Source: Minisyncoccota bacterium
GTDB taxonomy: Bacteria; Patescibacteriota; Minisyncoccia; Phycocordibacterales; PALSA-1337
Reading direction: 5' to 3'
DNA length: 64,000 nt
Assembly (NCBI GenBank): GCA_018060945.1
Contig: JAGOVB010000001.1
Span: 5,238-69,237 of the forward strand
The notes under the pieces are model-generated. The model was not told the DNA's origin. It searched no databases and saw only the letters and a program-made list of their open reading frames with translations. Shown here piece by piece: positions 28,703 through 61,228 of this stretch. Every line of letters starts with the position of its first letter. Positions within the stretch are counted from its first letter, which is position 1. Both the position numbers and the translations under genes were made by a program.

Positions 28703-28781
28703 CAACAAAAATGAACACAAACATAAATACAAAATGCGCTTTGAAAGGTCGAAATTATCAATCAGTAATAATCAGCAACTA

Positions 28782-45651: not shown

Positions 45652-45652
45652 A

Positions 45653-48280: not shown

Positions 48281-48283
48281 TTT

Positions 48284-48889
48284 ATGAATATTCCATTTCA
48301 ACAGACTCCAAACTACGCAGTCGGTCCCACAAAGAAAACAGTGGTAGTCCTTCATTTCACACTCGGGGCGTACAGAGGAGCGGTAGAGTGGCTATCAAAT
48401 GCTAACCGGCCGAACCGATCATCAGCTCATTTCGTAATAGGTCGCAATCAAGGTGAGGCGGTGCAACTCGTAAAGGTTACTGACATCGCATGGCACGCCG
48501 GTGCGGTCAGTAATCCAAATGAACGTGCAAAGCGTGTCATGAGAAAGAATCTTGATGGCACATGGGTCAACCCAAATCAGTACACAATCGGGATCGAATT
48601 AGCTGCCGGATATGACGTGGATCAGGATGGTGCGGTCGAGCCAAACGAAAATGACATTACAGAGTGGCAGTATCAGCAGCTCACAGAACTCGTAAGGGCA
48701 TTTGCAAACAATCCAGACACTGCATTTGTCCTGGATGAGAAAAATATCATCATTCACGGAGATATAACTGACTACAAAGAGAAGCCTGAAATAGTTCGTA
48801 AAGAACTTCTCAAGAGATTGTTTCCGGTCCAGCCAAGTAACAAAGAGGCAATCAAATCTCAGATCATCAGCCTCTTGAATCAACTATGA
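48284..48889 (+). CDS. N-acetylmuramoyl-L-alanine amidase (endolysin, Amidase_2/PGRP type)
   Basis: SSAHFVIGRNQGEAVQLVKVTDIAWHAGAVSN and surrounding blocks match the amidase_2 zinc-amidase fold. Confidence 0.8.
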   Translation: MNIPFQQTPNYAVGPTKKTVVVLHFTLGAYRGAVEWLSNANRPNRSSAHFVIGRNQGEAVQLVKVTDIAWHAGAVSNPNERAKRVMRKNLDGTWVNPNQYTIGIELAAGYDVDQDGAVEPNENDITEWQYQQLTELVRAFANNPDTAFVLDEKNIIIHGDITDYKEKPEIVRKELLKRLFPVQPSNKEAIKSQIISLLNQL

Positions 48890-49256: not shown

Positions 49257-50330
49257 ATGAAAAAGACCCAATCTCAACTAAAACCCACATACAAAGTCAT
49301 TGATTTGTTTTCCGGATGTGGGGGACTTTCTTTTGGCTTTACAAAACAGAAATTTGATGTCATTGCAGGAATTGATAATTGGAAAGATGCACTCATCACT
49401 TTTGAGAAAAACCACAACGGGGCAAAATCTATTTTAATGGATCTCGGAAATTTTGATCCCGCTGATCTTAAAAAGAAATTAGGTAAAGTCGACATAATTG
49501 TTGGCGGCCCACCATGCCAAGGCTTCTCAATTTCTGGAAAAAGAAATCCTAGCGATCCACGTAACCAGCTTTATATTGGCTTTGTGAAAACAGTCGAGGT
49601 ATTCAAGCCGAAAGCTTTTGTTTTAGAAAATGTACCTAATCTCGTATCAATGAATGGGGGGAAAATAAAGGATGAAATCATAAAAGACTTTACTGCGCTA
49701 GGGTACGACGTTAAGTATAAGGTGATGCTCGCATCAGATTATGGCGTTCCTCAGAATCGGCGCCGAGTTGTTTTTGTTGGAATGCTCGGCAAGAATACCT
49801 TTGAATTTCCTGAGGGAGAGTTTAAGGCTGCGGATTTAAAAATAACTACTAGTCAGGCGATTTCTGATTTACCTGAACATTCAGTCGTAGATGGGTCAGA
49901 ACACAAACTAGTCTCTAAATCGATGTATCAGGCATTAATGCGAAAGGATAGTGGAAAAATCTTTAATCACGTATCCACAAATCACGATGATAAAACTGTA
50001 AAAATTATTTCACTTGTTCCCGATGGTGGAAATTTTAAGGATTTACCAAAGCACCTGAGGAAAACTCGTAATGTAAATATTGCCTGGACAAGGTATAATA
50101 GTTCAAGGCCTAGTTTTACAATTGATACAGGTCACAGGCACCATTTTCATTATAAATTCAATCGAGTGCCTACAGTTCGTGAATCTGCACGTCTCCAATC
50201 ATTTCCTGACGACTTCATATTCATGGGGTCAAAGACTAGTCAGTATAAACAAGTCGGAAATGCGGTCCCTCCGTTGATGGCTGAGAAGATCGCAAAGGCA
50301 TTGTCGGTCGCCTTAAATAAAAGACAATAA
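49257..50330 (+). CDS. DNA (cytosine-5)-methyltransferase (R-M cassette, MTase 1)
   Basis: Motif I LFSGCGGLSFGF, motif IV GGPPCQGFSISGKR, ENVPNL, and C-terminal QVGNAVPPLMA. Confidence 0.85.
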   Translation: MKKTQSQLKPTYKVIDLFSGCGGLSFGFTKQKFDVIAGIDNWKDALITFEKNHNGAKSILMDLGNFDPADLKKKLGKVDIIVGGPPCQGFSISGKRNPSDPRNQLYIGFVKTVEVFKPKAFVLENVPNLVSMNGGKIKDEIIKDFTALGYDVKYKVMLASDYGVPQNRRRVVFVGMLGKNTFEFPEGEFKAADLKITTSQAISDLPEHSVVDGSEHKLVSKSMYQALMRKDSGKIFNHVSTNHDDKTVKIISLVPDGGNFKDLPKHLRKTRNVNIAWTRYNSSRPSFTIDTGHRHHFHYKFNRVPTVRESARLQSFPDDFIFMGSKTSQYKQVGNAVPPLMAEKIAKALSVALNKRQ

Positions 50331-50334
50331 TTTT

Positions 50335-51756
50335 ATGTACGAAGTACCTGAAGAATATTTTTATAGAATCCATCACATACGACCACGTTTTAAGAATGAT
50401 GTTGAAAACGTGCTTTTTTACATGGCAACTGAAATTGCCAAACTCGATCCCGAAAAACAAGAAGCTTTCAAAGAAAAATTAAATAATACGATCAAGTTTT
50501 ATCCTGGCAACACTTCAAAAGAAGAAAAGACTATCAATAATTGGCGTACAGAAATTTCTGCTCTCTTTGGATTGATCGAATACGAGGGTGAGGTTTCAAA
50601 ACCAGGAAGAATGTCTTTGCTATTGTCAGAGACTCAAGACCTCATCGAGTTTTTTAGATATTTCTTGTTCTATTTTCAGTATCCAGGAGGGCATTTGAAG
50701 CCTGCTGAGACGTTAGAGTTTATTAAAGCAGGAATTAGATTGAAGCCAGCGAAATATCTCATGCAAGTAATGCTTGAAGGGAAAAAGCTTGTGGGCGACG
50801 AGGGAAAATTTGGTATTACCAAGGCAGAAGCAACCCATCTCATATTTAATGATCTTCGAGTAACAAGAGACCATCGACCAGCAAAGGAAACTGCTGAGAT
50901 TATTCTCGAGAATAGGAAAAATGATGTTCAGTATGATAATTCTGGTGATGTAATTCGTTACGCCGGAGATGTTTTGGATTATATGGAGCTTGCAGACCTA
51001 GTAAAGCTACGTCCGAACTATCAATATTATTTGAATACGATAAATCTTGAGACGATTCAAGCTTTTATTAATGATGGAAATTATTTTGAGCCATACGAAG
51101 CACTTTATGGAAAAGCTGATGTATCGATCGCTGATGTTGTAGCAACACAGCAAGCTTGGTTCCATTACGTAAACAACAAGCTCGATTCAAGTATATTTAA
51201 AGCCAATATTCTCTCTATTATCGAGGAAGCAGGAGCAACTACAGAGGATGCAGAAAAGAGCGCTATTATCAAAGAGGTTCTCGCACGAATCCAAGCTACT
51301 CGTGAAGGTCAGGCTATAAAAACCAAAGAGATTGGAGATATTGGCGAGACAATGGTGATTGAACATGAGAAAGCTCGTCTCACTATTTTGACTAGAGAGG
51401 ATTTGCTACACCTCATCAAGAAAATTCCTGAGACGTTTGCAGTTGGATATGACATCTCATCATATGAAGGTGAGGGTGACATTCGAAGATACATTGAAGT
51501 GAAAACTAGTATCAGCCGTGGGCGACTTGCTGCACAAAATTTCCACATGACTCCGAGTGAGTGGAGTGCGGCAAACTCTCTCCGTAAGACTTACTTCGTA
51601 TACCGTCTTATGATATCGACGAACGATGTCAGCCTTTTCTTGATCCAAGACCCAGTTGGTCAATATAAATCGGACTTGTTAGATATGATTCCTAGGGATG
51701 GGGCCGATATAAGGTATAATGAGAAGAGTGGAGTATGGGAAAAACTACTAGTATGA
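50335..51756 (+). CDS. Putative restriction endonuclease (C-terminal PD-(D/E)xK domain)
   Basis: Sandwiched between two C5-MTases with 4 nt and overlapping spacing. The C-terminus has GDIGETMVIEHEKARL...VGYDISSYEGEGDIRRYIEVKTS...FHMTPSEWSAA...YFVYRL, a D-x13-EVK nuclease motif (DUF3883-like). Confidence 0.5.
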   Translation: MYEVPEEYFYRIHHIRPRFKNDVENVLFYMATEIAKLDPEKQEAFKEKLNNTIKFYPGNTSKEEKTINNWRTEISALFGLIEYEGEVSKPGRMSLLLSETQDLIEFFRYFLFYFQYPGGHLKPAETLEFIKAGIRLKPAKYLMQVMLEGKKLVGDEGKFGITKAEATHLIFNDLRVTRDHRPAKETAEIILENRKNDVQYDNSGDVIRYAGDVLDYMELADLVKLRPNYQYYLNTINLETIQAFINDGNYFEPYEALYGKADVSIADVVATQQAWFHYVNNKLDSSIFKANILSIIEEAGATTEDAEKSAIIKEVLARIQATREGQAIKTKEIGDIGETMVIEHEKARLTILTREDLLHLIKKIPETFAVGYDISSYEGEGDIRRYIEVKTSISRGRLAAQNFHMTPSEWSAANSLRKTYFVYRLMISTNDVSLFLIQDPVGQYKSDLLDMIPRDGADIRYNEKSGVWEKLLV

Positions 51757-52796
51757 AAAACAATAAACCTTACAAAATAGTTTCCTTATTCAGTGGTTGC
51801 GGAGGGATGGATATGGGTGCAGAAGGCGGATTTACTTATTTAGGAAAAAAATACAAGAAGCATTCAACTGATTTGTTGTATGCAATGGATTTCGATAAGC
51901 CTATCTGCGAAATATATAACGCAAACTTTTCTCGTAAAATTGATGTAAAAGATATACGTGAATTAAAATCGGAAGACGTTCCCAATCACGATATCCTCAC
52001 CGGTGGCTTTCCGTGCCAATCGTTCTCAGTGAGTGCACAAAATCCAAAGAGACTTGGCTATAAGGATGCTCGAGGCAAGCTTTTCTTTGAAATGTGCAGA
52101 ATTTTAAGAGATAAACAACCTGCGGTTTTTGTAGGTGAGAACGTAAAGGGATTACTTTCAGCAAATAAGGGTGAGGCTTTTGCTCTGATCATAAAGGAAT
52201 TCGAAAAAGTTGGTTATCATGTCAAATATCAAATCTTGAATGCGTCCCACTTCGGAGTACCTCAGAAAAGAGAGCGTGTTTTCATTGTTGGATTTAGAGA
52301 TAAAAATACTTTTGATAAATTTGAATTCCCAAAGACAGTTACAGAAGGTAATCCGGTCCCACTTTCGGCCGTAGTTATTCCGGAGAAAGAGATAGAGGAG
52401 AAATACTACTTTAGTGAAAAGGCAGTAAAGGGAATGCAGGAAACTAAGAATGCAAAGACAATGAATAAAGGAAGGGCACAAGACCTAAGCGAGCCTTGCA
52501 ACACTGTTACTTCTCATCTTGCAAAAGTGAGTCTAAATAGCACTGATCCGGTCCTATTCTCAAAAGGGAAGTATAGAATGTTTACACCCAGAGAGGTGGC
52601 TCGAATTCAGTCATTTCCAGATACTTTTGTTCTGCCAGCATCACGTGGAGTAAATTATAAAGCGCTTGGTAATGCAGTCGCACCCGTAATGATGTGGTAT
52701 GTCACAAAAAAGATTATCGAGGCTTTAGAAAATAGTAATCAACCTACTACTTCTGTTGTCAGCATTTCGAGAAATCGTGAGCTAGTTACTAGTTAG
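51753..52796 (+). CDS. DNA (cytosine-5)-methyltransferase (R-M cassette, MTase 2)
   Basis: Motif I LFSGCGGMDMG, motif IV GGFPCQSFSVSAQ, ENVKGLL, and C-terminal GNAVAPVMM. ATGA overlap with the upstream gene. Confidence 0.85.
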   Translation: MKNNKPYKIVSLFSGCGGMDMGAEGGFTYLGKKYKKHSTDLLYAMDFDKPICEIYNANFSRKIDVKDIRELKSEDVPNHDILTGGFPCQSFSVSAQNPKRLGYKDARGKLFFEMCRILRDKQPAVFVGENVKGLLSANKGEAFALIIKEFEKVGYHVKYQILNASHFGVPQKRERVFIVGFRDKNTFDKFEFPKTVTEGNPVPLSAVVIPEKEIEEKYYFSEKAVKGMQETKNAKTMNKGRAQDLSEPCNTVTSHLAKVSLNSTDPVLFSKGKYRMFTPREVARIQSFPDTFVLPASRGVNYKALGNAVAPVMMWYVTKKIIEALENSNQPTTSVVSISRNRELVTS

Positions 52797-52955: not shown

Positions 52956-53474
52956 ATGACCACCCAATCTTTTTTCGCACAACCAATTTTTTTTATAATA
53001 TTAGTGCTACTTCTTTCAGTTGTAATAAATACTTTTTTTCTTCGACTCCTCATTTCTGCAATTGTGAGAAAAATAGGTGATGTACACACCAAGCTTCGGG
53101 AAGAAATTAAGTTTTCTTTGCAGCCAATTGGAGATATTCCAATGGGAGTAGAGGAAATTACCGAACTTGCAACAGAGATTTGGAGAATTGAGCAGAGACT
53201 CTCAAAAACGGCAGATAAAATATCTGACGTACACAAAAAAGGACTTGAGAATTCCGTTCAACGCCTCAAAAGATATCTACAGAAGTTCGATGTTGAAATT
53301 CAGGATTATACTGGCCAAAAATATAATGATGGCTTTAATTTTGATATCTTATCGCGCGAACAAGACCCTTCTCTCGAGCATCCCATAATAAAAGAGACAG
53401 TCGAACCAACAATCACCTGTAGGGGAAGGATAGTAAAGAAGGCAAAGGTGATTCTAGCCTCAAACCAAGTATAA
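52956..53474 (+). CDS. Membrane-anchored GrpE-like protein (putative nucleotide-exchange factor)
   Basis: N-terminal TM helix and a long helical coiled coil. The C-terminal small beta domain RLKRYLQKFDVEIQDYTGQKYNDGFNFDILS...TVEPTITCRGRIVKKAKVIL aligns with the GrpE C-terminus (GxxFDPxxH...GYKLxDRVLRPAxVxV). Assignment is tentative. Confidence 0.4.
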   Translation: MTTQSFFAQPIFFIILVLLLSVVINTFFLRLLISAIVRKIGDVHTKLREEIKFSLQPIGDIPMGVEEITELATEIWRIEQRLSKTADKISDVHKKGLENSVQRLKRYLQKFDVEIQDYTGQKYNDGFNFDILSREQDPSLEHPIIKETVEPTITCRGRIVKKAKVILASNQV

Positions 53475-53480
53475 AATTTT

Positions 53481-55973
53481 ATGGCCACCCGACACATACA
53501 AATTGGAATCGATTTAGGAACCACCAACTCGGAGGTGGCTATTAACAATGGAAGCTCTGTTGAGATAATCAAGAACGGATTCAATGATGAATATACACCT
53601 TCTGTATTTGGAATCGATAAATCCAAGAATAAAATCGTCGGTAAAAAGGCATATGAGAGACTTTTTAAGTATGCCTCAAAAGAGGAACTGGCTAATAATA
53701 AGGCTGAGGTAAAGAGAATAATGGGTACAGCCGAAACAGTTAGATTTGAGCGAACAGATGAAGATTTAAAGCCAGAAGAAATCTCAGCTGAAATCTTAAA
53801 ATCTCTAAAAGAAGACATTTTAAGAAAATACCCTGAATTCAACACAACCTCAGCTGTTATTACTATCCCGGCACATTTTTCGGTAGTTCAAGCTGAGGCA
53901 ACTAAACGAGCTGGTAATATTTCAGGTTTTGATTACGTTGTGCTTTTGCAAGAACCAATCGCCGCAGCAATTGGTTATGGATTCATGAATGCCAAAAACG
54001 AAAATTGGCTTGTTTATGATCTTGGGGGTGGTACTTTTGACGTAGCTCTTATCTCCGCAAAAGACGGACATCTTACTGTGGTAGCACAAAACGGCGATAA
54101 TTTTCTAGGTGGTAAGGATTTCGATAAATTAATTATTGAAAAAGTCTTAATTCCAAAAATTAAAGAGGAATTTAACTGTCCAGACATCAAAGAAGATAAG
54201 GTTATTTTCTCAAAACTAAAAAATCTTGCAGAAGTTGCAAAAATTGAGCTCACCTCATACGACAAGACAAATATCCAGATTGAAAATATTGGCGAGGATG
54301 CCGATGGGAAGGAAATCTACTTATCGATAGACTTTTCTCGAAGTGAATTTGAAAAGTTAATCAAACCTTTGGTAGACAGGACTATTAAACTCTCCCAAGA
54401 AACAATCAAGGAATCGGGAATAAAACAAACCTCGGTTGATAAAATCATCCTTGTTGGTGGTCCCACATTAATACCATATGTGAAAAATAGACTTGAGAGC
54501 GATTTGAAAATACAAGTGGATGCATCTGTTGATCCTTTAACCATTGTTGCTCGAGGTGCTTGTATTTATGGCGTAAGTCAGCAAGTTCCTGATGAATTTG
54601 CAAAGAAAGTGGTCCAGAATAAAGACGCAATGAATTTAAAGCTTCACTTCGACTCACTGTCCTCTGATGTTGAGACAACAGTGAGCGGAATTGTTGAGGA
54701 GTTGCGTGACAGTGAGGAAGATCACTATCTCCAAATTCAAGGAGATTCAGGTACATATAGCGGTCCCAAAGTTAAAATCAAAAATGGGAAATTTTTTGAT
54801 ACTATTACCCTAGATGCAAATCGAACGAATTTATTTTGGATATACCTTTTTGATGCACAGGGTAATGCGGTTCCTATAGAACCCGATTCATTCACCATTA
54901 TTCATGGACTCTCGATTTCTGGAGCTCCTATACCTCATGCGATTGGTGTTGGGGTGGTTAAAAAAGATTTTAAAACTGGCTTAGCAACAGAAATTTTTGA
55001 TAAATACTTTGCAAAAAACAGTGTACTTCCATTAAAAGAAACTCGAACATTTAAGACTCTAAGAAAGCTCAAGAAAGGTGATAAAGAAAATGTCTTACCT
55101 ATCAATGTATACGAGGGCGAATCTGATAGACAAGATCGAAATCAAAGAGTTTGCAGCCTGAAAATTTCAGGTGAAAAGATACCATATGATTTGCCTGAGG
55201 GCACTCCAATCGAAATTACAATCGAGATAAACGAATCTCGAGAGGTCAGCGTAAATGCATATATCGAATCAATCGATCTTTCTCTTGATGCGCGAGCGTC
55301 AATCCATGCAGAAGACCTGAATGTGGAGCAGATGAAAGAAGAGTTGGGGTCACAACGTGCTCGAATAGATAATGCTAAAGAAAATTGTTCTCCTGAGGAG
55401 CGAAAAAGTCTCGAGCATACTTATGATTCCGTAGACAATAGTCTCGACCGCGCAGAAGATGACCAAGATGAAAAGAGGAAGGCTAACAAGCAGTTGAAGG
55501 ACTTGAAATTACAGTTAGATATGATCGAAAGGGATAAGGAAATGCCTCAGTTGATTCGTGAGTTTAAGGAAGGCGTTCAGAAAGCAGCAGAGGCAATAAA
55601 GGAAGTGGGGAACAAAGAAGAATTGAATCAACACAAAGAACTACTCGACTCTCTTAAAACTGAAGGGGAAATGGCTATTGAAGACGAGGACAAACATCTT
55701 CTTATTCGTGTAAACGAACAGATTGATGACTTGAAACATAAGATCATTTTCTCAAATCCTGCTGCTTGGGCATATTTCTTTGAAAAGATTGTCAAAGATA
55801 ACAAAAAATTCATTAGTGACAAAGAAGCCGAGTATTATATCAATAAAGGTCGTCGAGCTATTGAAATGGGGGATACTGAGGAGCTCAAGCGATGTGTGAA
55901 AGGCCTGATGCTTCTCCTGCCTCCTGAGGAACAGGCGATGCTGCAAAATACGATGTCTGGAATAACATATTAA
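53481..55973 (+). CDS. Divergent Hsp70-family chaperone (DnaK paralogue) with inter-domain insertion
   Basis: NBD motifs IGIDLGTTNSEVAI, DLGGGTFDVALIS, ILVGGPTLIPYV. SBD-beta-like region NVYEGESDRQDRNQRVCSLKISGEKIPYDLPEGTPIEITIEINESREVSVNA. A long charged helical lid. About 115 extra aa between NBD and SBD. 830 aa. Confidence 0.8.
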   Translation: MATRHIQIGIDLGTTNSEVAINNGSSVEIIKNGFNDEYTPSVFGIDKSKNKIVGKKAYERLFKYASKEELANNKAEVKRIMGTAETVRFERTDEDLKPEEISAEILKSLKEDILRKYPEFNTTSAVITIPAHFSVVQAEATKRAGNISGFDYVVLLQEPIAAAIGYGFMNAKNENWLVYDLGGGTFDVALISAKDGHLTVVAQNGDNFLGGKDFDKLIIEKVLIPKIKEEFNCPDIKEDKVIFSKLKNLAEVAKIELTSYDKTNIQIENIGEDADGKEIYLSIDFSRSEFEKLIKPLVDRTIKLSQETIKESGIKQTSVDKIILVGGPTLIPYVKNRLESDLKIQVDASVDPLTIVARGACIYGVSQQVPDEFAKKVVQNKDAMNLKLHFDSLSSDVETTVSGIVEELRDSEEDHYLQIQGDSGTYSGPKVKIKNGKFFDTITLDANRTNLFWIYLFDAQGNAVPIEPDSFTIIHGLSISGAPIPHAIGVGVVKKDFKTGLATEIFDKYFAKNSVLPLKETRTFKTLRKLKKGDKENVLPINVYEGESDRQDRNQRVCSLKISGEKIPYDLPEGTPIEITIEINESREVSVNAYIESIDLSLDARASIHAEDLNVEQMKEELGSQRARIDNAKENCSPEERKSLEHTYDSVDNSLDRAEDDQDEKRKANKQLKDLKLQLDMIERDKEMPQLIREFKEGVQKAAEAIKEVGNKEELNQHKELLDSLKTEGEMAIEDEDKHLLIRVNEQIDDLKHKIIFSNPAAWAYFFEKIVKDNKKFISDKEAEYYINKGRRAIEMGDTEELKRCVKGLMLLLPPEEQAMLQNTMSGITY

Positions 55974-55977
55974 TTTT

Positions 55978-57441
55978 ATGAGCCTTTTAAAAGATAATTC
56001 ATACCACATACTAGGACTAGACACTTCTGCGAACCAAAAAGAAGTATCTAAACGGTCAAAAGAAATACTGACTCGCCTAAAAATCGATGATGTACCTCAA
56101 TATGATCTCGATCTGAATCTTTTTAAGGATTTTAGAAATGAGCACTCTGTAAAAGAGGCAGTTTCGAATCTTTCGACTCCAAAAAAACACATCAAGGAGT
56201 ATTTTTTCTGGTTTCAAATAGCGGATACTGTAGATGAGCAAGCAGTAGGTATCTTTAGAAGTGGTCACTATGAGGATGCTACGAGAGTGTGGGAACATCA
56301 TTCTTCTGAAGACAACGCAAAGTCCCTTTTGTATAAAAAAAATCTTGCCATACTTTATAGCTTACTGCTCTATAAGTCTAAGAATCAAGACTATTTAAAG
56401 AAATCAGTTGCAATATGGGGTGAGTTAGTCAATTCACCTAAATTCTGGAGCTCTTTCTCCAAGGTGCACAGGCTTCATGATGAACTCGGAGCCGAGCAAG
56501 ACGTTATAGATGATTTCAAAAAGCATGTTTCTGGTTATATTTCTGATATTTACACTGATCTATCAAACTTCCATAAGGATAACGAATTCATTGCCGCTTT
56601 CTCTAAAAACTTTGGATTGAAGGGTGAAAAGATTGAGACTGATGTGCTGAATCCAATATATAGAATCATAAACGATGCAGTAGAAGATTTGGAAAAGCTA
56701 AAAGTAAGTGATGACGGCATTTTGGACAAACATGAGTCTGACGAAATAAAACGTCTGATTTCGGTAATTCAAGCTGAGCTCAATAAACTTATTGATCTCG
56801 GACTCTATGAAGAAAGCAAAATAAAAGTGGTCAGAGATAGGGCTGCAGCTACACTTAGAAGGTTAAGCATCGAAATCAACAACAATTTGAACGATACAGG
56901 AATCGCACTTGGTCTTGCTAAGATTGCGGAAAAAATATCTGGCACAGAGAGTTTTAAAAGCAAGGTTCAGCAAGATAAGAAAACACTGCAAGACAATCAC
57001 GACTACAAAAATAAAGAGGAGAAACAGAAGGCTGTTGTTGACCCAATAATTGCTGATTTCCATGCAGGAAATACTGAGCGAGCAATACAAACAATTAATG
57101 GCTACATATACAATGACAGTACGGATAAGGACTTAAAAGAAACCCTTACTGGAATCAAAGCTGCTATTGAAGAAAGAATTGTAAAGAATGGAAAGCCTGT
57201 GTCGAAGGCTCCAGCGATGCAGAGTATTAATGGTTTCGGTACTACCATCTACGGCGATACTGTTTATGCCATAGCTTTGTTTGTCCCTCTTTTCGCAATT
57301 GGGAGATACAAGGTTACGAATCATGGAGGCAATAGCTACTCATTCCAAGGTAAGCTGGAGCTTAAAAAATGGCAGAAGATTTATAACTGGGTGGTCCCAG
57401 GGATAATTATTCTTTGGATACTAATATCTTATAACAGCTAA
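55978..57441 (+). CDS. J-domain-like protein lacking HPD, with C-terminal TM anchor
   Basis: N-terminal SYHILGLDTSANQKEVSKRSKEILTRL...EAVSNLSTPKKHIKEYF follows the J-domain helix II/III pattern, but the HPD position reads IDD. Helical repeat middle region. Two C-terminal hydrophobic helices. Confidence 0.45.
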   Translation: MSLLKDNSYHILGLDTSANQKEVSKRSKEILTRLKIDDVPQYDLDLNLFKDFRNEHSVKEAVSNLSTPKKHIKEYFFWFQIADTVDEQAVGIFRSGHYEDATRVWEHHSSEDNAKSLLYKKNLAILYSLLLYKSKNQDYLKKSVAIWGELVNSPKFWSSFSKVHRLHDELGAEQDVIDDFKKHVSGYISDIYTDLSNFHKDNEFIAAFSKNFGLKGEKIETDVLNPIYRIINDAVEDLEKLKVSDDGILDKHESDEIKRLISVIQAELNKLIDLGLYEESKIKVVRDRAAATLRRLSIEINNNLNDTGIALGLAKIAEKISGTESFKSKVQQDKKTLQDNHDYKNKEEKQKAVVDPIIADFHAGNTERAIQTINGYIYNDSTDKDLKETLTGIKAAIEERIVKNGKPVSKAPAMQSINGFGTTIYGDTVYAIALFVPLFAIGRYKVTNHGGNSYSFQGKLELKKWQKIYNWVVPGIIILWILISYNS

Positions 57442-57442
57442 T

Positions 57443-58045
57443 ATGAGCGACCATCTTAATTTTGATACAGACTTCCTCAATAGCACTAAGGCTACCCCAA
57501 AGCCTAAGGTTAATTCACCTAAACAATCAGGTGGATCGGGAGGTGGCAATGATACAGTAAAAAAATGGGCGTGGGGAATAGGAATTGTGCTTGGTATAAT
57601 TGTACTTTCCGCCTTGTTTGATGATTCTAGTTCAACATCAACATATACACCACCAGCTACACCAGCGACAACACAAGCATCCGGAGGAGATGACAATACT
57701 TTTACTTACAATGGTCAAACCTTCAGGTGTTCTGATTACCATTACGACAAAGCAATTGCGTTACGACCGAATGCTACTCTTAGCTCTCAACTTGATACTG
57801 AAGCAGCAGGATTCGAAACTAGATTGGCGGCGTTGAAAAGAGAAAAAGATCGAATAGATGACATGTATGTCGATGAATATGATCAGGATTCCTTGGATGA
57901 GTATAATGCGGCTGTTGATAGCTTTAATTATAATAACAATAAATATAAGAGTGATGTTTCCTTATTCGAAGTGAGAGCTGAAGCATTCGACCGTCAAATT
58001 GATACCTACAACAACTACTTGGATGCTAATTGCAGACCACAATAA
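57443..58045 (+). CDS. Single-pass membrane protein with Ser/Thr/Pro-rich linker
   Basis: TM segment WAWGIGIVLGIIVLSALF followed by a roughly 140 aa extracytoplasmic domain. Confidence 0.35.
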   Translation: MSDHLNFDTDFLNSTKATPKPKVNSPKQSGGSGGGNDTVKKWAWGIGIVLGIIVLSALFDDSSSTSTYTPPATPATTQASGGDDNTFTYNGQTFRCSDYHYDKAIALRPNATLSSQLDTEAAGFETRLAALKREKDRIDDMYVDEYDQDSLDEYNAAVDSFNYNNNKYKSDVSLFEVRAEAFDRQIDTYNNYLDANCRPQ

Positions 58046-58046
58046 T

Positions 58047-59108
58047 ATGGCGATCCAGACTAAACCAATTCTATATAATGGCTTTGAGGTCAAAGACGGC
58101 GTAAAAATTAAAAGCCGTATTGATAAAGCTTTTTTCACTGAAATATACGAACTCTCCAATGATTCGTTTTTTTACCTATTCTTGAATCTTAATCCAAATG
58201 AGGTGATTGATAGGCGAGGGAAATATGAACTCATTCGAGTAACTGTGGCAGCGAAGGAATGGATCGGTGTAATGGTAAAAAATCACTCAAATCAACATCT
58301 ATCGCTGGTAATTGAGGAACTCACTACGCTCAGAGGGTTTGATAACATTGCTGGAATGAAGGAACTCAAACAGACCCTTATTGCTGAAGTCATTAACCCC
58401 CTAAGAGACCCTGAAAAGTTCAAAAAGTTTAAAGTCTCAATTCCCAACGGAATTCTTTTGTATGGTCCCCCTGGATGCGGAAAAACTTTCATTGTCCGAA
58501 AGCTTTCAGAAGAACTTGGATATAACTTCTTTGAGGTTAAGCATTCTGATCTAGCAACTCCTTTCATTCATGGTTCAGTAGGAAATATTGGAAAAGTTTT
58601 TGAAATGGCCAAGATGAATGCCCCTGCGATTGTATTTTTCGATGAAATTAGTGGTCTGGTCCCAGATCGTCAAAATCTCCACGATTCTTCTTCACATAAA
58701 GAGGAAGAAATAAATGAATTCCTTATTCAGCTAAACGATGCTGCTGATAACAATATTTTGGTTGTGGGTGCTACTAACTATATAAACAGAATCGATCAAG
58801 CAATTCTTAGACCTGGACGTATGGATAAAAAAATTCATGTCCCCCCACCAGACAAGGAAGCAAGGCATGAATTATTTAAACTTGGTCTCTCCGGCCGACC
58901 ACATGACAAAGACATTGACTTCGATAAGCTAACAGAGCTTACAGATGGGTATAGCGCTGCAGATATTATAGAGGGTATTGTTGAAGGATCAGCCAGACTT
59001 GCTGCCAATTTAGATAAGCAATCTATTGATCAGGAGTTACTAGAGCAGGAAATTAAAAAGGTAAAGCCAGTTGAGGAAGAACGACCAAAAATCGGCTTTT
59101 CAATTTAA
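58047..59108 (+). CDS. AAA+ ATPase (classic clade)
   Basis: Walker A GPPGCGKT, Walker B IVFFDEI, second region of homology ILVVGATNYINRIDQAILRPGRMDKKIHV. A roughly 130 aa N-terminal domain of unknown function. Start taken at the ATG at 58047, just after the upstream stop. Confidence 0.8.
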   Translation: MAIQTKPILYNGFEVKDGVKIKSRIDKAFFTEIYELSNDSFFYLFLNLNPNEVIDRRGKYELIRVTVAAKEWIGVMVKNHSNQHLSLVIEELTTLRGFDNIAGMKELKQTLIAEVINPLRDPEKFKKFKVSIPNGILLYGPPGCGKTFIVRKLSEELGYNFFEVKHSDLATPFIHGSVGNIGKVFEMAKMNAPAIVFFDEISGLVPDRQNLHDSSSHKEEEINEFLIQLNDAADNNILVVGATNYINRIDQAILRPGRMDKKIHVPPPDKEARHELFKLGLSGRPHDKDIDFDKLTELTDGYSAADIIEGIVEGSARLAANLDKQSIDQELLEQEIKKVKPVEEERPKIGFSI

Positions 59109-59110
59109 AT

Positions 59111-59431
59111 ATGATTACTCCTGAACAAAAAAACTACAGAATAATTTTCTCCAAGATAGCAGGTGTACTGCTGTTAATTGCCATGATTCCAATTTGGCCT
59201 TATTTCTTCTATCAATTCCTTAAATTGGTCGTGTTCGGTGCTGCGATTCATTCTGTATACCTATACCACAAGGAAAAGAATACAAAGTGGGTAGTAATCA
59301 TGGTCATAATTGCCATAATATTTAATCCTATTAATCCTCTCTATTTCGGCCATTTCCTTTGGTCGATAGTAGATTTTATAGTTGCAGCGATATTCTTTAA
59401 TTCCGCAAAGAAGCACGCTGTTCATAGTTAA
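59111..59431 (+). CDS. Small polytopic membrane protein
   Basis: 106 aa with three predicted TM helices. Confidence 0.3.
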   Translation: MITPEQKNYRIIFSKIAGVLLLIAMIPIWPYFFYQFLKLVVFGAAIHSVYLYHKEKNTKWVVIMVIIAIIFNPINPLYFGHFLWSIVDFIVAAIFFNSAKKHAVHS

Positions 59432-59447
59432 TATAAACAAATTCCAC

Positions 59448-60314
59448 ATGAAATATTTTGAATGGCTGAAGACGAATAAACATATCCGAAGAATATTTCT
59501 ATCGGGAGTAATAGCTATTTCTTTTGTCGTTTTAAGTTTTATTAGTCTAGCACTCTATGAAGCCGTAATTTATGGCGATACGGATTCCGAGGGAGAAATG
59601 ATTGCTGGAAATGATTTGTCATGCAATGTGCTAGGTATAAATCTTCATGGAGACCTTTATACCTATATTCCAGAAAGTAACGACGATGAGCTTCTAAGCG
59701 ATAAAGATGTCGTGGCAAGCGAAGAAATCATGAACCTTATTGATGAAGCAGAAGCAGATGAAGAAATTAGGGCAATCATCGTAGAGGTAGATTCAGCTGG
59801 AGGATACCCTGTAGCAGGTGAAGAAATCGCCGCAGCAATAAAAGCTGCGACAAAGCCTGTTATTGCTTTCATTCGACAAAGCGGAACTTCAGCATCATAT
59901 TGGGCAATTACTACAGCAGATCATATATTTGCATCTAAAAACTCAGATGTCGGAAGCATTGGAGTGACCATATCTTATGTAGACAATGTCTCAAAAAATG
60001 AAAAGGAAGGTCTTGCGTATGTTCAATTAAGCTCAGGTAAGTACAAAGATGCTGGTAGTCCGGATAAGCCACTCACTGAAGAAGAAAAGGGGCTAATCGT
60101 GAGAGATTTGAAAATCATTCATGAAAACTTTATCAAGGAGGTTTCAGCTAATAGGAATATTCCAATAGAAAAGGTTAGAGCCGTTGCCGATGGATCATCA
60201 GTACTTGGCGAAAGAGCAAAGGAGCTTGGCTTGATTGACTCAATCGGTGGGTACCCAGAAGTCAAAAAGTACGTAGAGGAAAAAATAGGTGAAAAAGTAG
60301 ATGTTTGCTGGTAA
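59448..60314 (+). CDS. Signal peptide peptidase SppA-like (S49 family, ClpP/crotonase fold)
   Basis: N-terminal TM. IRAIIVEVDSAGGYPVAGEEIAAAIKAATKPVIAFIRQSGTSASYWAITTADHIF...GSIGV matches the 36K-type SppA core. Confidence 0.6.
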   Translation: MKYFEWLKTNKHIRRIFLSGVIAISFVVLSFISLALYEAVIYGDTDSEGEMIAGNDLSCNVLGINLHGDLYTYIPESNDDELLSDKDVVASEEIMNLIDEAEADEEIRAIIVEVDSAGGYPVAGEEIAAAIKAATKPVIAFIRQSGTSASYWAITTADHIFASKNSDVGSIGVTISYVDNVSKNEKEGLAYVQLSSGKYKDAGSPDKPLTEEEKGLIVRDLKIIHENFIKEVSANRNIPIEKVRAVADGSSVLGERAKELGLIDSIGGYPEVKKYVEEKIGEKVDVCW

Positions 60315-60322
60315 TCAAAATC

Positions 60323-61228
60323 ATGGAAGAAAAAGTAAAACTATATCGCATACAAGCGGAAAAATTACGTTCCTATCCTGAGTTTTTAAAGAATTTTAAT
60401 GCAACTTTAAACTGGGAAGAAGGGAAGGGGTTGTCACTAACTCATACTGGCTTTGATGATAAAACCATTACCGCTGTATTTATGGCAGCAAGGCCTTTTT
60501 TGATGGACGAAAGGATTAATTTCGAGCAACTGTGTCAGGATGTTATCGCCTCAGAACAGAATGATGTAATTAAAAAGGATGCTATTGACGCTCTCGAAGC
60601 CTGGAATAAACTCATGCATCCGGATAAAGAGAGTCCCTTGATGCAAGTAAACGAAAAGGGGATTACCTATCTACAAAACTTTAGATATTGGATGAATGAA
60701 GAACATTTCCATCCCGAAGAATATAAAATTGATGGGTCCCGAGGACTTTCATCTATCAAGCAATCAGAAGCACTCGAATGGTTTTCAAAGCCATTTATGG
60801 TCGACTTTTTACAGAAGATCGTTCAACTTATCCTATGGCTCGATATTCGAGTCGTCTCAAATATTCACCAAGAACCTATAAAGATAATAAAAAAGTATCG
60901 CAATCCTACAAAAGAAGCTGCAGATTTAAAAGAAGCTCTGGAAAAGAAAGGGGTGCGAGTTCTGGTTGAGTTACACGATGGGCATAAACATATAGACCTA
61001 GCAATTCCTAAGGCGAGGATAAATGTGGAGGTAGATGGGATTCAACACCTCACTAACCCAGAACAGATTGTAGCTGATCTTAGTAGGGGATTTTACTCAC
61101 ATAAAAATGGCTTTGACACTATGCACATTCCGAATGAGATGATTCGCTTACACCTCAAGGAAATTTCAGCTGCTTTGGCTGAAGCGTCTAAAATAAGAGA
61201 GCGTAAAATACATCTTCATTTAGAATAA
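60323..61228 (+). CDS. Protein with C-terminal DUF559-like (PD-(D/E)xK) domain
   Basis: C-terminus RVLVELHDGHKHIDLAIPKARINVEVDGIQH follows the DUF559 / Vsr-like pattern (D-x10-EVDG-x2-H). The N-terminal 200 aa are unknown. Confidence 0.45.
   Translation: MEEKVKLYRIQAEKLRSYPEFLKNFNATLNWEEGKGLSLTHTGFDDKTITAVFMAARPFLMDERINFEQLCQDVIASEQNDVIKKDAIDALEAWNKLMHPDKESPLMQVNEKGITYLQNFRYWMNEEHFHPEEYKIDGSRGLSSIKQSEALEWFSKPFMVDFLQKIVQLILWLDIRVVSNIHQEPIKIIKKYRNPTKEAADLKEALEKKGVRVLVELHDGHKHIDLAIPKARINVEVDGIQHLTNPEQIVADLSRGFYSHKNGFDTMHIPNEMIRLHLKEISAALAEASKIRERKIHLHLE

What the first reader, a model, noticed from the sequence alone, without database searches (positions are those of the whole stretch)
53481..55973. 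Hsp70 homologue carries about 115 aa insertion between nucleotide-binding and substrate-binding domains
The three Hsp70 phosphate/adenosine motifs and an SBD-beta-like region are recognisable. Between the end of the NBD (CIYGVSQQV) and the SBD-like segment (IPHAIGVGVVKK...) lies an extra block (KKVVQNKDAMNLKLHFDSLSSDVETTVSGIVEEL...FTIIHGLSISG) absent from canonical DnaK. Together with a roughly 250 aa charged lid this gives 830 aa. An insertion at the interdomain linker, which carries allosteric coupling in DnaK, would alter NBD-SBD communication.
Basis: seen in the sequence. Interest (0 to 1): 0.55.

Follow-up and report, generated by a model that had tools for sequence, protein, structure and literature searches.

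The report
Mobile Hsp70 with inserted beta domain
A gene on a prophage-like island of a Patescibacteria genome encodes a member of a large, apparently undescribed Hsp70 chaperone family that carries an extra ~100-residue all-beta domain just before the interdomain linker and travels with its own membrane-anchored exchange factor, a J-like partner lacking the HPD motif, and a Cdc48-like AAA+ ATPase.

Summary
ORF 53481-55973 (+, 830 aa) is an Hsp70 with all catalytic residues intact. Between the end of the nucleotide-binding domain (G364) and the first SBD-beta strand (H486) it has 121 residues, where E. coli DnaK has 17, a net insertion of about 104 aa. The full eight-strand SBD-beta follows, so the block is not a divergent half of the SBD. 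An AlphaFold2 model (pLDDT 89.8) makes residues 384-475 a six/seven-strand all-beta domain placed N-terminal to a retained short hydrophobic linker. The lid also has a ~120-aa helical extension.

The insert is family-wide: 116-131 aa in 81 of 81 aligned members, and about 1,087 clusters at 50% identity. The family is patchily spread over Patescibacteria, Omnitrophota, DPANN and methanogenic archaea, Proteobacteria, Bdellovibrio and Helicobacter.

The gene sits in a tight conserved operon: TM-anchored GrpE-like, Hsp70, tail-anchored J-like (HPD replaced by I-D-D), small TM protein, Cdc48-D2-like AAA+, then optionally DUF6804 and an S49 peptidase. The operon often lies in prophages or islands.

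Canonical allosteric and J-contact residues (DnaK R151, R167, D481) are replaced. Function is untested. I infer a dedicated membrane-tethered Hsp70-AAA+ remodelling machine, possibly acting in phage-host conflict. It is a new variant of a known kind.

The parts
52956..53474 (+). GrpE-like nucleotide-exchange-factor homologue (172 aa) with an N-terminal transmembrane helix
   Evidence: Pfam GrpE matches at E=1.9e-4, 21.6 bits, below the cut-off of 25.8. 15 of 22 orthologues hit Pfam GrpE, best E=5.5e-9. A hydrophobic N-terminal segment is seen in the alignment. The gene ends 6 nt before the Hsp70 start. It lies directly upstream of the Hsp70 in 37 of 46 GTDB loci. NCBI annotates it as a hypothetical protein.
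53481..55973 (+). Hsp70 family protein, 830 aa (the finding)
53481..54575 (+). Nucleotide-binding domain (aa 1-365), predicted catalytically competent
   Evidence: Aligns to the DnaK NBD at E=4.6e-65. DnaK D8, T11, N13, K70, P143, E171, D194, T199 and D201 equivalents are invariant in 81 of 81 family members. R151, R167 and D148 equivalents are not conserved.
54576..54905 (+). Family-specific insertion (aa 366-475): a variable 18-aa lead-in plus an all-beta domain at aa 384-475 (nt 54630-54905)
   Evidence: The AF2 model (pLDDT 89.8) has strands 384-389, 398-405, 416-421, 437-443, 448-457 and 470-475. The segment is 116-131 aa in all 81 members. There is no significant Pfam or PDB sequence match, only sub-threshold FN3/Ig hints at E=0.08-0.4. 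It is not detectably a duplicate of SBD-beta. Mean pairwise identity is 0.28, against 0.34 for SBD-beta and 0.20-0.24 for the lid.
54906..54935 (+). Retained interdomain linker equivalent (aa 476-485, GLSISGAPIP; family consensus HGLSVxGAPLP)
   Evidence: P485 aligns to DnaK P396. The position immediately precedes beta1, 'HAIGV' = DnaK 'LSLGI'. A short strand is predicted at 478-479. Mean identity is 0.37. That this stretch corresponds to DnaK VLLLD is inferred from position.
54936..55292 (+). SBD-beta (aa 486-604), eight strands, hydrophobic peptide pocket retained
   Evidence: The profile aligns to the DnaK SBD. The model has eight strands between 488 and 603. DnaK I401, T403, F426, V436 and I438 equivalents stay hydrophobic, P419 is invariant and K414 is K/R, but D481 is replaced by a conserved Ser.
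55293..55970 (+). Alpha-helical lid (aa 605 to about 707, alignable to DnaK lid helices) plus a family-specific C-terminal helical extension (about aa 708-830)
   Evidence: Ten helices lie between 615 and 819 in the model. The PDB profile alignment stops at DnaK residues ~601-607, leaving about 115 profile positions unmatched.
55978..57441 (+). J-like co-chaperone candidate (487 aa): N-terminal divergent J-domain without HPD (I-D-D), helical middle, C-terminal hydrophobic tail anchor
   Evidence: The profile of the first 100 aa hits almost only J-domains in PDB (20 of 24 hits, best E=0.003), with K-I-D-D aligned to Y-H-P-D. 9 of 26 orthologues hit Pfam DnaJ, best E=0.0025. The window protein itself has no Pfam hit. 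It shows no similarity to E. coli DjlC. It lies downstream of the Hsp70 in 41 of 46 loci.
57443..58045 (+). Small single-pass membrane protein (200 aa) with a conserved acidic N-terminal motif (hLDFDxDFLD)
   Evidence: No Pfam hit. Present in 24 loci (including the extra non-GTDB loci L001, L002, L003, L051 and L053). The motif is visible in the N-termini listed.
58047..59108 (+). Single-domain classical AAA+ ATPase (353 aa from the ATG at 58047; the mechanical ORF starts at TTG 57999) with a unique ~110-aa N-domain
   Evidence: Pfam AAA E=1.8e-32 plus AAA_lid_3. The closest solved relatives are the D2 domains of Cdc48/p97/VAT at E about 4e-85. IetA-like in PADLOC (113.8 bits), but 105.7 bits is well below the NCBIfam IteA cut-off of 510. 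Orthologues start MxxPTKPILY. Present in 37 of 46 loci.
59111..59431 (+). DUF6804 small membrane protein (facultative operon member)
   Evidence: Pfam DUF6804 E=2.1e-21. Found next to the operon in 19 of 46 loci.
59448..60314 (+). S49 (SppA/ClpP-fold) serine peptidase with an N-terminal TM helix (facultative operon member; mechanical ORF starts at 59382)
   Evidence: Pfam Peptidase_S49 E=2e-32. phrog_53 head maturation protease E=1.2e-41. Detected in 5 of 46 GTDB loci and in L001 and L051.

Best explanation
What it is (shown). The ORF encodes an ATPase-competent, DnaK-derived Hsp70 of a large, distinct, horizontally mobile family of about 830 aa. Two modules have been added to the canonical NBD-linker-SBDbeta-lid plan:
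- a ~92-residue all-beta (probably Ig/FN3-like) domain spliced in between the last NBD helix and the interdomain linker, a net gain of about 104 aa;
- a ~120-aa helical extension of the lid.

It is the central gene of a tightly packed conserved operon. The operon encodes a membrane-anchored GrpE-like exchange factor, a tail-anchored J-like protein whose HPD motif is replaced by I/V-D-D, a small membrane protein, and a Cdc48-D2-like AAA+ ATPase. DUF6804, Yip1-like and S49-peptidase membrane proteins are facultative members. The operon is cargo of prophages and integrative islands.

How it most likely works (inferred).
- The GrpE-like and J-like proteins tether a private Hsp70 cycle to the cytoplasmic face of the membrane.
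- The conserved hydrophobic SBD pocket grips an extended segment of a membrane-proximal client.
- The client is handed to, or remodelled together with, the AAA+ unfoldase. This would be a bi-chaperone arrangement analogous to DnaK-ClpB.
- The inserted beta domain emerges exactly where the linker leaves the NBD. In DnaK this is next to the J-domain/linker/SBD-beta signalling hub (established knowledge from the DnaK-DnaJ complex, not inspected here).
- The family has lost the canonical hub residues (DnaK R151, R167, D481) and its partner has lost HPD. I therefore propose that the insert is a family-specific docking or regulatory module that replaces the canonical J-HPD/R167 trigger, binding the J-like partner, the AAA+ N-domain or the client.

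Biological role (inferred from context only). A mobile-element-borne function in phage-host conflict or in the prophage life cycle, rather than housekeeping proteostasis.
For: Architecture:
- Searches give the alignments to DnaK and the 104-aa net insertion.
- One search gives the AF2 model: pLDDT 89.8, pTM 0.83, six main beta strands at 384-475, eight SBD-beta strands, a long helical lid.
- One search shows the model superposes on domain-docked BiP (TM 0.82-0.83) with about 116 extra alignment columns.

Family-wide conservation:
- Insert length is 116-131 aa in 81 of 81 members.
- 1,087 clusters at 50% identity match the C-terminal 466 aa, nearly all 815-850 aa long.
- Insert identity of 0.28 lies between SBD-beta (0.34) and the lid.

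Active ATPase but rewired hub:
- Catalytic residues are invariant. R151 becomes C/A/S, R167 becomes V/P, D481 becomes S, and the pocket hydrophobics are kept.

Partners:
- GrpE-like.
- J-like without HPD.
- AAA+ closest to Cdc48 D2.
- TM segments are visible.

Operon:
- Gaps of 1-16 nt between genes.
- The same gene order in 46 GTDB loci from at least 8 phyla: J-like 41/46, AAA 37/46, GrpE-like 37/46.
- A distant clade again pairs the Hsp70 with an AAA.

Mobility and conflict context:
- Prophage with the same LysM/amidase block and an integrase (L051, L018).
- Operon inside a phage head module (L053).
- Next to AbiEii/SLFN, R-M in the window, and a giant kinase-helicase-REase.
- Flank census: recombinases, Fic/SoFic, MTases, AbiEi, TraG, IS66.
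Against: - No experiment or described homologue exists. None of the operon proteins matches a PADLOC model except generic IetA/TRIP13-like AAA hits.
- Model coordinates could not be inspected, so the position of the insert relative to the J-site is deduced from chain topology only.
- The J-like assignment rests on weak scores (best E=0.003), and the window's own GrpE-like protein is below the Pfam cut-off.
- Loss of R151, R167 and D481 could equally mean weak or absent coupling rather than replacement by the insert.
- Mobile-element location does not prove a conflict role. A phage could simply bring its own chaperone for virion assembly.
Confidence: 0.55

Rival explanations
1. There is no real insertion. 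The extra block is a divergent N-terminal half of SBD-beta, or a mis-assembly or gene fusion.
For: None beyond the initial uncertainty. Single-sequence phmmer aligned only query 504-593 to the DnaK SBD, which left the first SBD strands unassigned.
Against: Profiles align from beta1 (HSIGV = LSLGI, DnaK 395-397) through the lid. The model has eight SBD-beta strands after residue 486 plus a separate beta domain before it. hhalign of the insert against SBD-beta gives 21% probability. The same architecture and insert length occur in 81 of 81 aligned members and in about 1,000 clusters from independent assemblies.
Confidence: 0.02
2. This is a phage-encoded general chaperone. The operon is a private DnaK/DnaJ/GrpE(+AAA) set that the (pro)phage brings to fold or assemble its own virion or replication proteins in a host with minimal proteostasis. 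The insert is a structural decoration without regulatory meaning.
For: The operon is a stable part of one prophage lineage (window, L018, L051). In L053 it sits between portal/minor-capsid and major-capsid genes. Hosts are mostly reduced-genome Patescibacteria and DPANN. The SBD pocket is canonical-like. Viral Hsp70s used in virion assembly are known from closteroviruses, which appear among the viral fold matches.
Against: Every accessory protein is membrane-anchored, which is not expected for capsid folding. HPD and the canonical allosteric residues are lost. Many copies are not in recognisable phages but beside Abi/R-M/recombinase genes or in large chromosomal contigs of Proteobacteria, Helicobacter and methanogens. 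There is no match in 50,697 deposited phage genomes. Insert length and sequence are under constraint.
Confidence: 0.2
3. This is a dedicated anti-phage or superinfection-exclusion system. The Hsp70 SBD and/or the Ig-like insert senses a phage protein at the membrane, and the AAA+ (with or without the S49 peptidase) executes the response. It would be a chaperone-based immune module like those predicted by comparative genomics.
For: The distribution is patchy and HGT-like across bacterial and archaeal phyla. The operon lies in the accessory ('moron') region of prophages next to swappable R-M or Fic genes. Neighbours include AbiEii, SLFN_AlbA_2, AbiEi, SoFic, MTases, REases and recombinases. The AAA resembles IetA of the IetAS defence system. 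Hsp70+GrpE+DnaJ modules have been predicted in other conflict systems (PMC7159879; PMC11090510).
Against: No effector (nuclease, pore, NADase) is recognisable. The IetA similarity is generic AAA (105.7 bits against a cut-off of 510). The flank census has no control set, so enrichment is not quantified. No PADLOC model matches the Hsp70, J-like or GrpE-like proteins. This reading overlaps with, rather than excludes, the best explanation.
Confidence: 0.3
4. This is an Hsp110/Grp170-like holdase or exchange factor. The enlarged Hsp70 would not cycle as a foldase but would act as a NEF or holdase for the host DnaK.
For: The size is enlarged by insertions and a lid extension, with a diverged linker, as is known for Hsp110 (PMC13580251).
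Against: Hsp110 insertions lie within SBD-beta and the lid, not before the linker. Hsp110 is eukaryote-restricted. Here the catalytic residues and the P143 switch are invariant, and the operon supplies its own GrpE-like NEF and J-like protein, which implies a genuine Hsp70 cycle.
Confidence: 0.05

Closest known systems
DnaK (canonical bacterial Hsp70) with DnaJ and GrpE
   Same: The NBD is 34-36% identical to solved DnaK NBDs (Foldseek) and matches at E about 1e-65. All catalytic residues are present. It has an eight-strand SBD-beta with a hydrophobic pocket and an alignable lid. A cognate GrpE-like gene and a J-like gene are encoded alongside it.
   Different: - A 104-aa beta-domain insertion before the linker and a ~120-aa lid extension.
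- R151, R167, D481 and D148 are not conserved.
- It scores 302 bits against the NCBIfam DnaK cut-off of 822.
- The J partner lacks HPD, and both co-chaperones are membrane-anchored.
- It has an obligatory AAA+ neighbour and a mobile-element location.
HscC with tail-anchored DjlB/DjlC (E. coli)
   Same: It is a specialised, sporadically distributed Hsp70 encoded next to tail-anchored J proteins, implying action at the membrane (PMC8215388). The NBD lacks the DnaK 76-101 segment, and there is a small L1,2 insertion in SBD-beta.
   Different: - HscC is 556 aa, has no domain between the NBD and the linker, has a shortened lid, and has no GrpE partner.
- DjlC has a functional HPD J-domain and shows no similarity to the J-like protein here.
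- Identity between HscC and the window protein is only 29%.
Hsp110/Grp170
   Same: It is an Hsp70 enlarged by insertions and a lid extension, with a diverged linker.
   Different: Hsp110 insertions lie inside SBD-beta and the lid, not at the NBD-linker junction. Hsp110 is eukaryote-restricted and acts as a NEF. Here a separate GrpE-like NEF is present.
GAP1-N2 GTPase-centric conflict systems with Hsp70 + GrpE + DnaJ-FNIII (Kaur et al. 2020, PMC7159879)
   Same: They have a dedicated Hsp70, GrpE and J-domain protein encoded together in a predicted conflict system with membrane association. FNIII-type beta-sandwich modules are associated with the Hsp70 co-factor.
   Different: Those systems are defined by GAP1-N2 and TRAFAC GTPases and occur in Actinobacteria and Firmicutes. 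No GTPase is found in this operon. There the beta-sandwich is in a separate protein, not inside the Hsp70.
CoCoNuT CnuD / Hsp70-McrB fusions (Bell et al. 2024, PMC11090510)
   Same: They are Hsp70-like NBD/SBD units followed by extra helical (HEAT-like) repeats, encoded in defence operons.
   Different: CnuD has degenerate ATPase motifs and is tied to McrBC-type GTPase/nuclease genes. Here the ATPase residues are invariant and no McrBC is present. No sequence comparison could be made because no CnuD sequence was at hand.
DnaK-ClpB (Hsp70-Hsp100) bi-chaperone
   Same: It is a functional analogy: an Hsp70 system genetically coupled to an AAA+ unfoldase.
   Different: The AAA+ here is a single-ring Cdc48-D2-type protein with a novel N-domain. 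It is not a two-ring ClpB with an M-domain. Coupling is inferred from gene linkage only.

Membership tests
Hsp70 superfamily (Pfam PF00012) | Whole-protein score above the Pfam gathering threshold (20.6 bits) | tested here: met
   291.6 bits, E=1.3e-86.
Hsp70 superfamily | Catalytic and phosphate-binding residues (DnaK D8, T11, K70, E171, D194, T199, D201) and the P143 switch | tested here: met
   Invariant in 81 of 81 aligned family members, including the window protein.
DnaK (NCBIfam TIGR02350 / NF001413 equivalogs) | Score above the curated cut-off (822.55 / 648 bits) | tested here: not met
   302 and 301.9 bits.
DnaK | Short conserved linker (DVLLLD) directly joining the NBD to SBD-beta, and allosteric residues R151, R167, D481 | tested here: not met
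   121 residues instead of 17 lie between the NBD and beta1. R151 becomes C/A/S, R167 becomes V/P, D481 becomes S.
HscA (NCBIfam TIGR01991) | Score above the cut-off of 708.55 bits | tested here: not met
   224.8 bits.
HscC | About 556-aa architecture without an interdomain insert, a shortened lid, and a partner J-protein of the DjlB/DjlC type | tested here: not met
   The alignment with E. coli HscC shows 29% identity and the same ~100-aa gap. The J-like protein has no similarity to DjlC. No HscC-specific HMM was available to score.
Hsp110/Grp170 | Insertions within SBD-beta and the lid; eukaryotic distribution; NEF activity | tested here: not met
   The insertion maps before the linker, not inside SBD-beta. 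The distribution is prokaryotic. NEF activity is not testable here.
J-domain proteins (downstream ORF 55978-57441) | HPD tripeptide between helices II and III | tested here: not met
   I-D-D in the window protein. The orthologues in the 26-sequence alignment carry [I/V/A/M]-[D/E/G]-[D/E/N/S/T] in its place, and none shows an HPD there. The tripeptide aligns to H-P-D of DNAJC5.
J-domain proteins | Sequence match to the J-domain family | tested here: inconclusive
   20 of 24 PDB hits of the N-terminal profile are J-domains, but the best E is 0.003. 9 of 26 orthologues hit Pfam DnaJ, best E=0.0025. The window protein has no hit.
GrpE (upstream ORF 52956-53474) | Pfam PF01025 above the gathering threshold (25.8 bits) | tested here: inconclusive
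   The window protein scores 21.6 bits, E=1.9e-4. 15 of 22 orthologues match, best E=5.5e-9. The family profile does not retrieve solved GrpE structures.
IetAS anti-phage system | IetA equivalog score at or above 510 bits, plus an IetS subtilisin-like protease partner | tested here: not met
   The AAA scores 105.7 bits against NF042959. The PADLOC IetA hit is generic (113.8 bits). There is no IetS. The nearby peptidase is S49 and is facultative.
GAP1-N2 GTPase-centric conflict systems | GAP1-N2 protein and TRAFAC GTPase(s) as core genes | tested here: not met
   No GTPase domain is found in any operon protein by Pfam, and the conserved gene order has no place for one.
Classical AAA+ clade (ORF 58047-59108) | Pfam AAA plus AAA_lid_3; closest relatives Cdc48/FtsH/PAN | tested here: met
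   AAA E=1.8e-32. Cdc48/p97 D2 E about 4e-85.

The most novel reading that the evidence does not exclude
The operon (TM-GrpE-like, insert-bearing Hsp70, HPD-less tail-anchored J-like, small TM protein, Cdc48-like AAA+, with or without DUF6804/S49/Yip1, and sometimes preceded by Fic) is a previously undescribed, widely transferred chaperone-based conflict system of bacteria, archaea and their phages. In this reading it would be a fourth major prokaryotic Hsp70 class beside DnaK, HscA and HscC. The Ig/FN3-like insert would act as the sensor or coupling domain that replaces the universal J-domain HPD trigger.
Probability: 0.3. Interest if true: 0.8.

Novelty: new variant of a known kind. Interest (0 to 1): 0.62.

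Why it matters
Textbook and review accounts list three prokaryotic Hsp70 types: DnaK, HscA and HscC (PMC8215388). They treat the short hydrophobic linker, the HPD motif and residues such as R151, R167 and D481 as the conserved core of Hsp70 allostery.

This family has about 1,000 clusters at 50% identity across many phyla. It keeps the ATPase and the peptide pocket, but it splices a folded domain in front of the linker, drops those hub residues, and pairs with a J-like protein that has no HPD. If the machine cycles, it is a natural experiment on how Hsp70 coupling can be rewired.

Its obligatory linkage to a Cdc48-type AAA+ and to membrane anchors, and its carriage by prophages and islands of ultra-small Patescibacteria and DPANN organisms, also make it a candidate new player in phage-host conflict or phage-directed proteostasis. 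All partner proteins are currently annotated only as 'hypothetical'.

Tried and rejected
1. Single-sequence AlphaFold2 gave an unusable model (pLDDT 44). It was redone with an 81-sequence alignment.
3. The idea that the insert is a duplicated SBD-beta is not supported (hhalign 21%).
4. A search for the insert domain in other protein contexts returned nothing at E<=1e-3. This is uninformative, because even family members failed to score in that mode.
It was repeated with five closer sequences.
6. The window J-like protein has no similarity to E. coli DjlC.
7. The GrpE-like family profile retrieved no GrpE from PDB. The assignment rests on Pfam hits of the orthologues.
8. PADLOC, PHROGs and NCBIfam have no specific family for the Hsp70, J-like, GrpE-like or 200-aa proteins.
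9. Deposited phage genomes hold no homologue of the C-terminal part. Plasmids hold one distant homologue, in a different context.
10. Literature searches for this family, DUF6804, or Hsp70-based defence found nothing specific.
11. The promoter and terminator scan is not above chance.

Full report
OBSERVATION

One search lists an ORF at 53481..55973 (+ strand, ATG, 830 aa).
- Pfam HSP70 matches at E=1.3e-86.
- phmmer against PDB aligns aa 8-364 to the DnaK NBD (2v7y residues 5-348, E=4.6e-65). It weakly aligns aa 504-593 to the DnaK SBD-beta.
- No curated equivalog cut-off is reached: DnaK 302 bits against 822, HscA 225 bits against 709.

IS THE INSERTION REAL?

Three independent alignments agree.
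1. A profile of 81 family members aligns positions 486-587 to DnaK (2v7y) 367-457, with i-E 3.8e-7. 'SIGV' lies on DnaK 'SLGIE', which is beta1.
2. A profile of only the C-terminal 466 aa hits Hsp70 substrate-binding domains at E=2e-12. The alignment begins at profile position 118-119 ('PLPHSIGV' = DnaK T395-P396-L397...) and runs through SBD-beta and the lid to about DnaK 601-607. Positions 1-117 and the last ~115 positions have no counterpart in any solved Hsp70.
3. In a MAFFT alignment with E. coli DnaK and HscC (sequences taken from MG1655), DnaK has 17 residues between G379 and L397. The window protein has 121 between the equivalent G364 and H486. The net insertion is about 104 aa.

- The AlphaFold2 model built on the 81-sequence alignment (pLDDT 89.8, pTM 0.83) has eight strands in 488-603, which is a full SBD-beta.
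- It has a separate set of strands at 384-389, 398-405, 416-421, 437-443, 448-457 and 470-475.
- hhalign of the insert against the protein's own SBD-beta gives only 21% probability over 27 columns.

Foldseek shows that the model superposes on lid-truncated, domain-docked BiP (6eof, 5o4p) with TM 0.82-0.83. There are about 116 more alignment columns than target residues, which corresponds to the insert looped out. The docked arrangement of NBD and SBD-beta is therefore predicted to be attainable.

ANATOMY

- NBD: aa 1-365.
- Poorly conserved lead-in: aa 366-383, mean pairwise identity 0.16.
- Beta domain: aa 384-475, identity 0.28.
- Short linker-like stretch: aa 476-485, GLSISGAPIP (family consensus HGLSVxGAPLP, identity 0.37). 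A two-residue strand is predicted at 478-479.
- SBD-beta: aa 486-604, identity 0.34.
- Lid: aa 605 to about 707, alignable to the DnaK lid.
- Extra helical extension: about aa 708-830, identity 0.20-0.24.

The insertion therefore lies between the last NBD helix and the linker. It does not lie between the linker and the SBD.

The fold of the insert could not be assigned.
- There is no significant Pfam or PDB sequence match. The only hits are sub-threshold ones to FN3/Ig-type domains: tissue factor, FN3con, titin, 1uey at E=0.08-1.3, and Big_6 in one member.
- The whole-model fold searches return only Hsp70s.
- Six to seven strands in about 92 residues fit an Ig/FN3-like sandwich. This is inference.

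FAMILY

- The window protein is 100% identical to an NCBI 'Hsp70 family protein' from a Candidatus Pacebacteria MAG on a 70-kb contig. Dozens of 830-840-aa homologues at 57-86% identity follow.
- An exhaustive HMMER scan with only the C-terminal 466 aa finds 1,087 clusters at 50% identity at E<=1e-3. Of these, 721 are at E<=1e-10. Full-length entries are almost all 815-850 aa, with identity down to about 25%.
- In the 81-sequence alignment the G364..H486 segment is 116-131 aa in every member.
- A genome scan of GTDB species representatives returns 46 loci. They come from Paceibacteria, Saccharibacteria, Uhr-, Doudna-, Peregrini- and Komeilibacteria, Omnitrophota, Woesearchaeota, Methanoregulaceae, Alpha- and Gammaproteobacteria, Bdellovibrio, Helicobacter and Melainabacteria.
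- This distribution is patchy and typical of horizontal transfer.

RESIDUE-LEVEL READING (DnaK numbering)

- D8, T11, T12, N13, K70, P143, E171, D194, T199 and D201 are invariant or nearly so. The protein should bind and hydrolyse ATP.
- Pocket residues I401, T403, F426, V436 and I438 remain hydrophobic. P419 is invariant and K414 is K/R. An extended peptide-binding site is likely.
- The residues that carry the J-domain and substrate signal are replaced. R151 becomes C/A/S, R167 becomes V/P, N170 becomes Q, D481 becomes a conserved Ser, and D148 is variable.
- That R151, R167 and D481 are central to DnaK allostery and J-domain contact is established knowledge from the DnaK literature. It was not tested here.

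OPERON

Gene spacing in the window is 1-16 nt from 52956 to 60314.
- Upstream gene (172 aa). It has an N-terminal hydrophobic helix and a weak GrpE match (E=1.9e-4, below cut-off). 15 of 22 orthologues match Pfam GrpE, best E=5.5e-9. The family profile did not retrieve solved GrpE.
- Downstream gene (487 aa). It starts NNAYHILGLDxSAsqKDIlKRSKEIinRLKIDDxPEYDLD. Its N-terminal profile hits J-domains almost exclusively in PDB (20 of 24 hits, best E=0.003), with I-D-D aligned on H-P-D. 9 of 26 orthologues touch Pfam DnaJ. The protein ends in a hydrophobic tail. It is unrelated in sequence to E. coli DjlC.
- A 200-aa single-pass membrane protein follows. It has a conserved acidic N-terminal motif.
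- A single-domain AAA+ comes next. Its closest solved relatives are the D2 rings of Cdc48/p97/VAT, at E about 4e-85. Its true start is probably the ATG at 58047, judged from its orthologues.
- DUF6804 and an S49 peptidase follow.

With the window proteins as tblastn queries (E<=1e-5), the order GrpE-like, Hsp70, J-like, (p200), AAA, (DUF6804), (S49) recurs across the 46 GTDB loci.
- J-like 41/46, AAA 37/46, GrpE-like 37/46, DUF6804 19/46, S49 5/46.
- Many of the misses are at contig ends.
- A Yip1-like membrane protein is intercalated in 8 of the GTDB loci, and also in L001, L002 and L051.
- In a distant clade (30% identity) the Hsp70 is again followed by an AAA protein but preceded by other genes. 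A Pseudomonas plasmid copy has the same upstream pair.
- NCBI annotates the GrpE-like, J-like and 200-aa proteins as hypothetical.

GENOMIC CONTEXT

The first ~22 kb of the window is ordinary chromosome: FtsX, G6PD, LeuRS, an M3 peptidase and AlaRS. The region further along is prophage-like.
- A LysM protein, a 766-aa protein, a 93-aa protein and an Amidase_2 endolysin lie at 44056-48889.
- A C5-MTase / BpuJI-like REase / C5-MTase cassette follows at 49257-52796. The operon comes after that.
- The same LysM/766-aa/amidase block precedes the operon in L051. There Fic replaces the R-M cassette and a tyrosine integrase closes the element. The block also precedes the operon in L018, on a 378-kb Parcubacteria contig.
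- In L053 the operon lies between portal/minor-capsid and major-capsid genes.
- In L001 it lies beside AbiEii and SLFN_AlbA_2. In L052 it follows a 2,347-aa kinase-helicase-REase protein.

A census was made of 150 flanking ORFs from 41 loci.
- The most frequent families are serine and tyrosine recombinases, Fic (PADLOC SoFic) and DNA methyltransferases. AbiEi and TraG occur twice each; IS66 and MvaI/BcnI once each.
- There was no control set, so this is descriptive only.
- The C-terminal part has no homologue among 50,697 deposited phage genomes.

MECHANISM

Shown:
- An ATPase-competent Hsp70 with an intact peptide pocket.
- A folded extra domain before the linker.
- An extended lid.
- Lost canonical hub residues.
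- A cognate GrpE-like protein and an HPD-less J-like protein, both membrane-anchored.
- Obligatory genetic linkage to a Cdc48-type AAA+.
- Carriage on mobile elements.

Inferred:
- A private Hsp70 cycle tethered to the inner face of the membrane captures a client and cooperates with the AAA+ unfoldase, analogous to DnaK-ClpB.
- By chain topology the insert emerges beside the linker/J-binding hub. It serves as the family-specific docking or regulatory surface that compensates for the lost HPD-R167/R151/D481 circuitry.
- The biological role is most likely in phage-host conflict or prophage biology.
- I put about 0.55 on this composite. The architecture part is about 0.9 and the mechanistic role of the insert is about 0.35.

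Rivals:
- No true insertion (0.02, refuted).
- Phage-borne general chaperone with a decorative insert (0.2).
- Dedicated anti-phage system (0.3, overlapping with the main reading).
- Hsp110-like NEF or holdase (0.05).

COMPARISON WITH KNOWN SYSTEMS

The protein is an Hsp70 but not a DnaK, HscA or HscC by curated scores and architecture.
- It resembles HscC-DjlB/C in being a specialised Hsp70 with tail-anchored J partners (PMC8215388).
- It resembles Hsp110 in being enlarged, but the insertion sites differ (PMC13580251).
- It resembles the Hsp70+GrpE+DnaJ-FNIII theme of GAP1-N2 GTPase conflict systems (PMC7159879) and the Hsp70-like+HEAT CnuD of CoCoNuTs (PMC11090510). It lacks their defining GTPase and McrBC genes.
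- Full-text searches found no description of this family, of DUF6804, or of an Hsp70-AAA defence operon.

VERDICT

The insert also sits before, not instead of, the linker. The feature is a new variant of a known kind. Interest is 0.62, mainly because a large unannotated Hsp70 class with rewired coupling elements and a conserved AAA+/membrane operon on mobile elements would surprise Hsp70 specialists and is directly testable.

Noticed in passing
L051:8410-9474; L014:5266-6327; L020:4762-5823; L046:1726-2733: A Fic-domain gene (PADLOC SoFic-like) lies immediately upstream of the GrpE-like/Hsp70 operon in 4 loci. In L051 its stop overlaps the GrpE-like start. In the window the same slot holds an R-M cassette. 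FICD AMPylates the Hsp70 BiP in eukaryotes (own knowledge), so a regulatory link is conceivable. Alternatively it is just another defence moron.
   Followed up: partly
window 49257-52796: A compact R-M cassette: C5-cytosine MTase (49257-50330), BpuJI-N/NOV_C restriction endonuclease (50335-51756), and a second C5 MTase (51735-52796). It is not conserved next to the operon in other loci.
   Followed up: partly
window 44056-48889: A prophage lysis-type block: LysM protein (531 aa), a 766-aa protein, a 93-aa small membrane protein (possible holin) and an Amidase_2 endolysin. The same block at 53-83% identity precedes the operon in L051 (which has an integrase) and in L018 (378-kb Parcubacteria contig).
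   Followed up: partly
window 10010-12997: A 995-aa leucyl-tRNA synthetase with a NUDIX hydrolase domain (aa ~442-555) embedded after the editing domain. This is an unusual fusion or insertion.
   Followed up: no
window 57443-58045 and orthologues: The 200-aa membrane protein and its orthologues share an N-terminal acidic-hydrophobic motif (e.g. HLDIDLEFLDKKE, HLNFDTDFLN). In L014 a second protein with the same motif precedes the AAA. It could be a short linear motif recognised by the Hsp70 SBD or the AAA N-domain.
   Followed up: no
window 60305-61228: A 307-aa ORF overlapping the S49 stop, with weak DUF559 / MTES_1575 REase-like matches (E about 1e-3). A 76%-identical fragment follows the S49 gene in L051.
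   Followed up: no
window 1-64000: All ORFs of 150 aa or more up to 45 kb that are not nested inside a larger +-strand ORF, and all operon genes, are on the + strand. Cumulative GC skew rises monotonically across the whole window. The first ~22 kb carry housekeeping genes (G6PD, LeuRS, AlaRS), so the contig is chromosomal with an integrated element, not a free phage genome.
   Followed up: partly
window 28734-29981: A third C5-cytosine DNA methyltransferase (415 aa) lies within the putative prophage region, far from the R-M cassette.
   Followed up: no
L057:2-7300 and L004:5412-10392: A distant clade of the same insert-bearing Hsp70 (about 30% identity) has a different operon: a large 700-940-aa protein, a ~117-aa protein, the Hsp70, then a 540-aa AAA in L057. 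One copy is on a conjugative Pseudomonas plasmid.
   Followed up: partly
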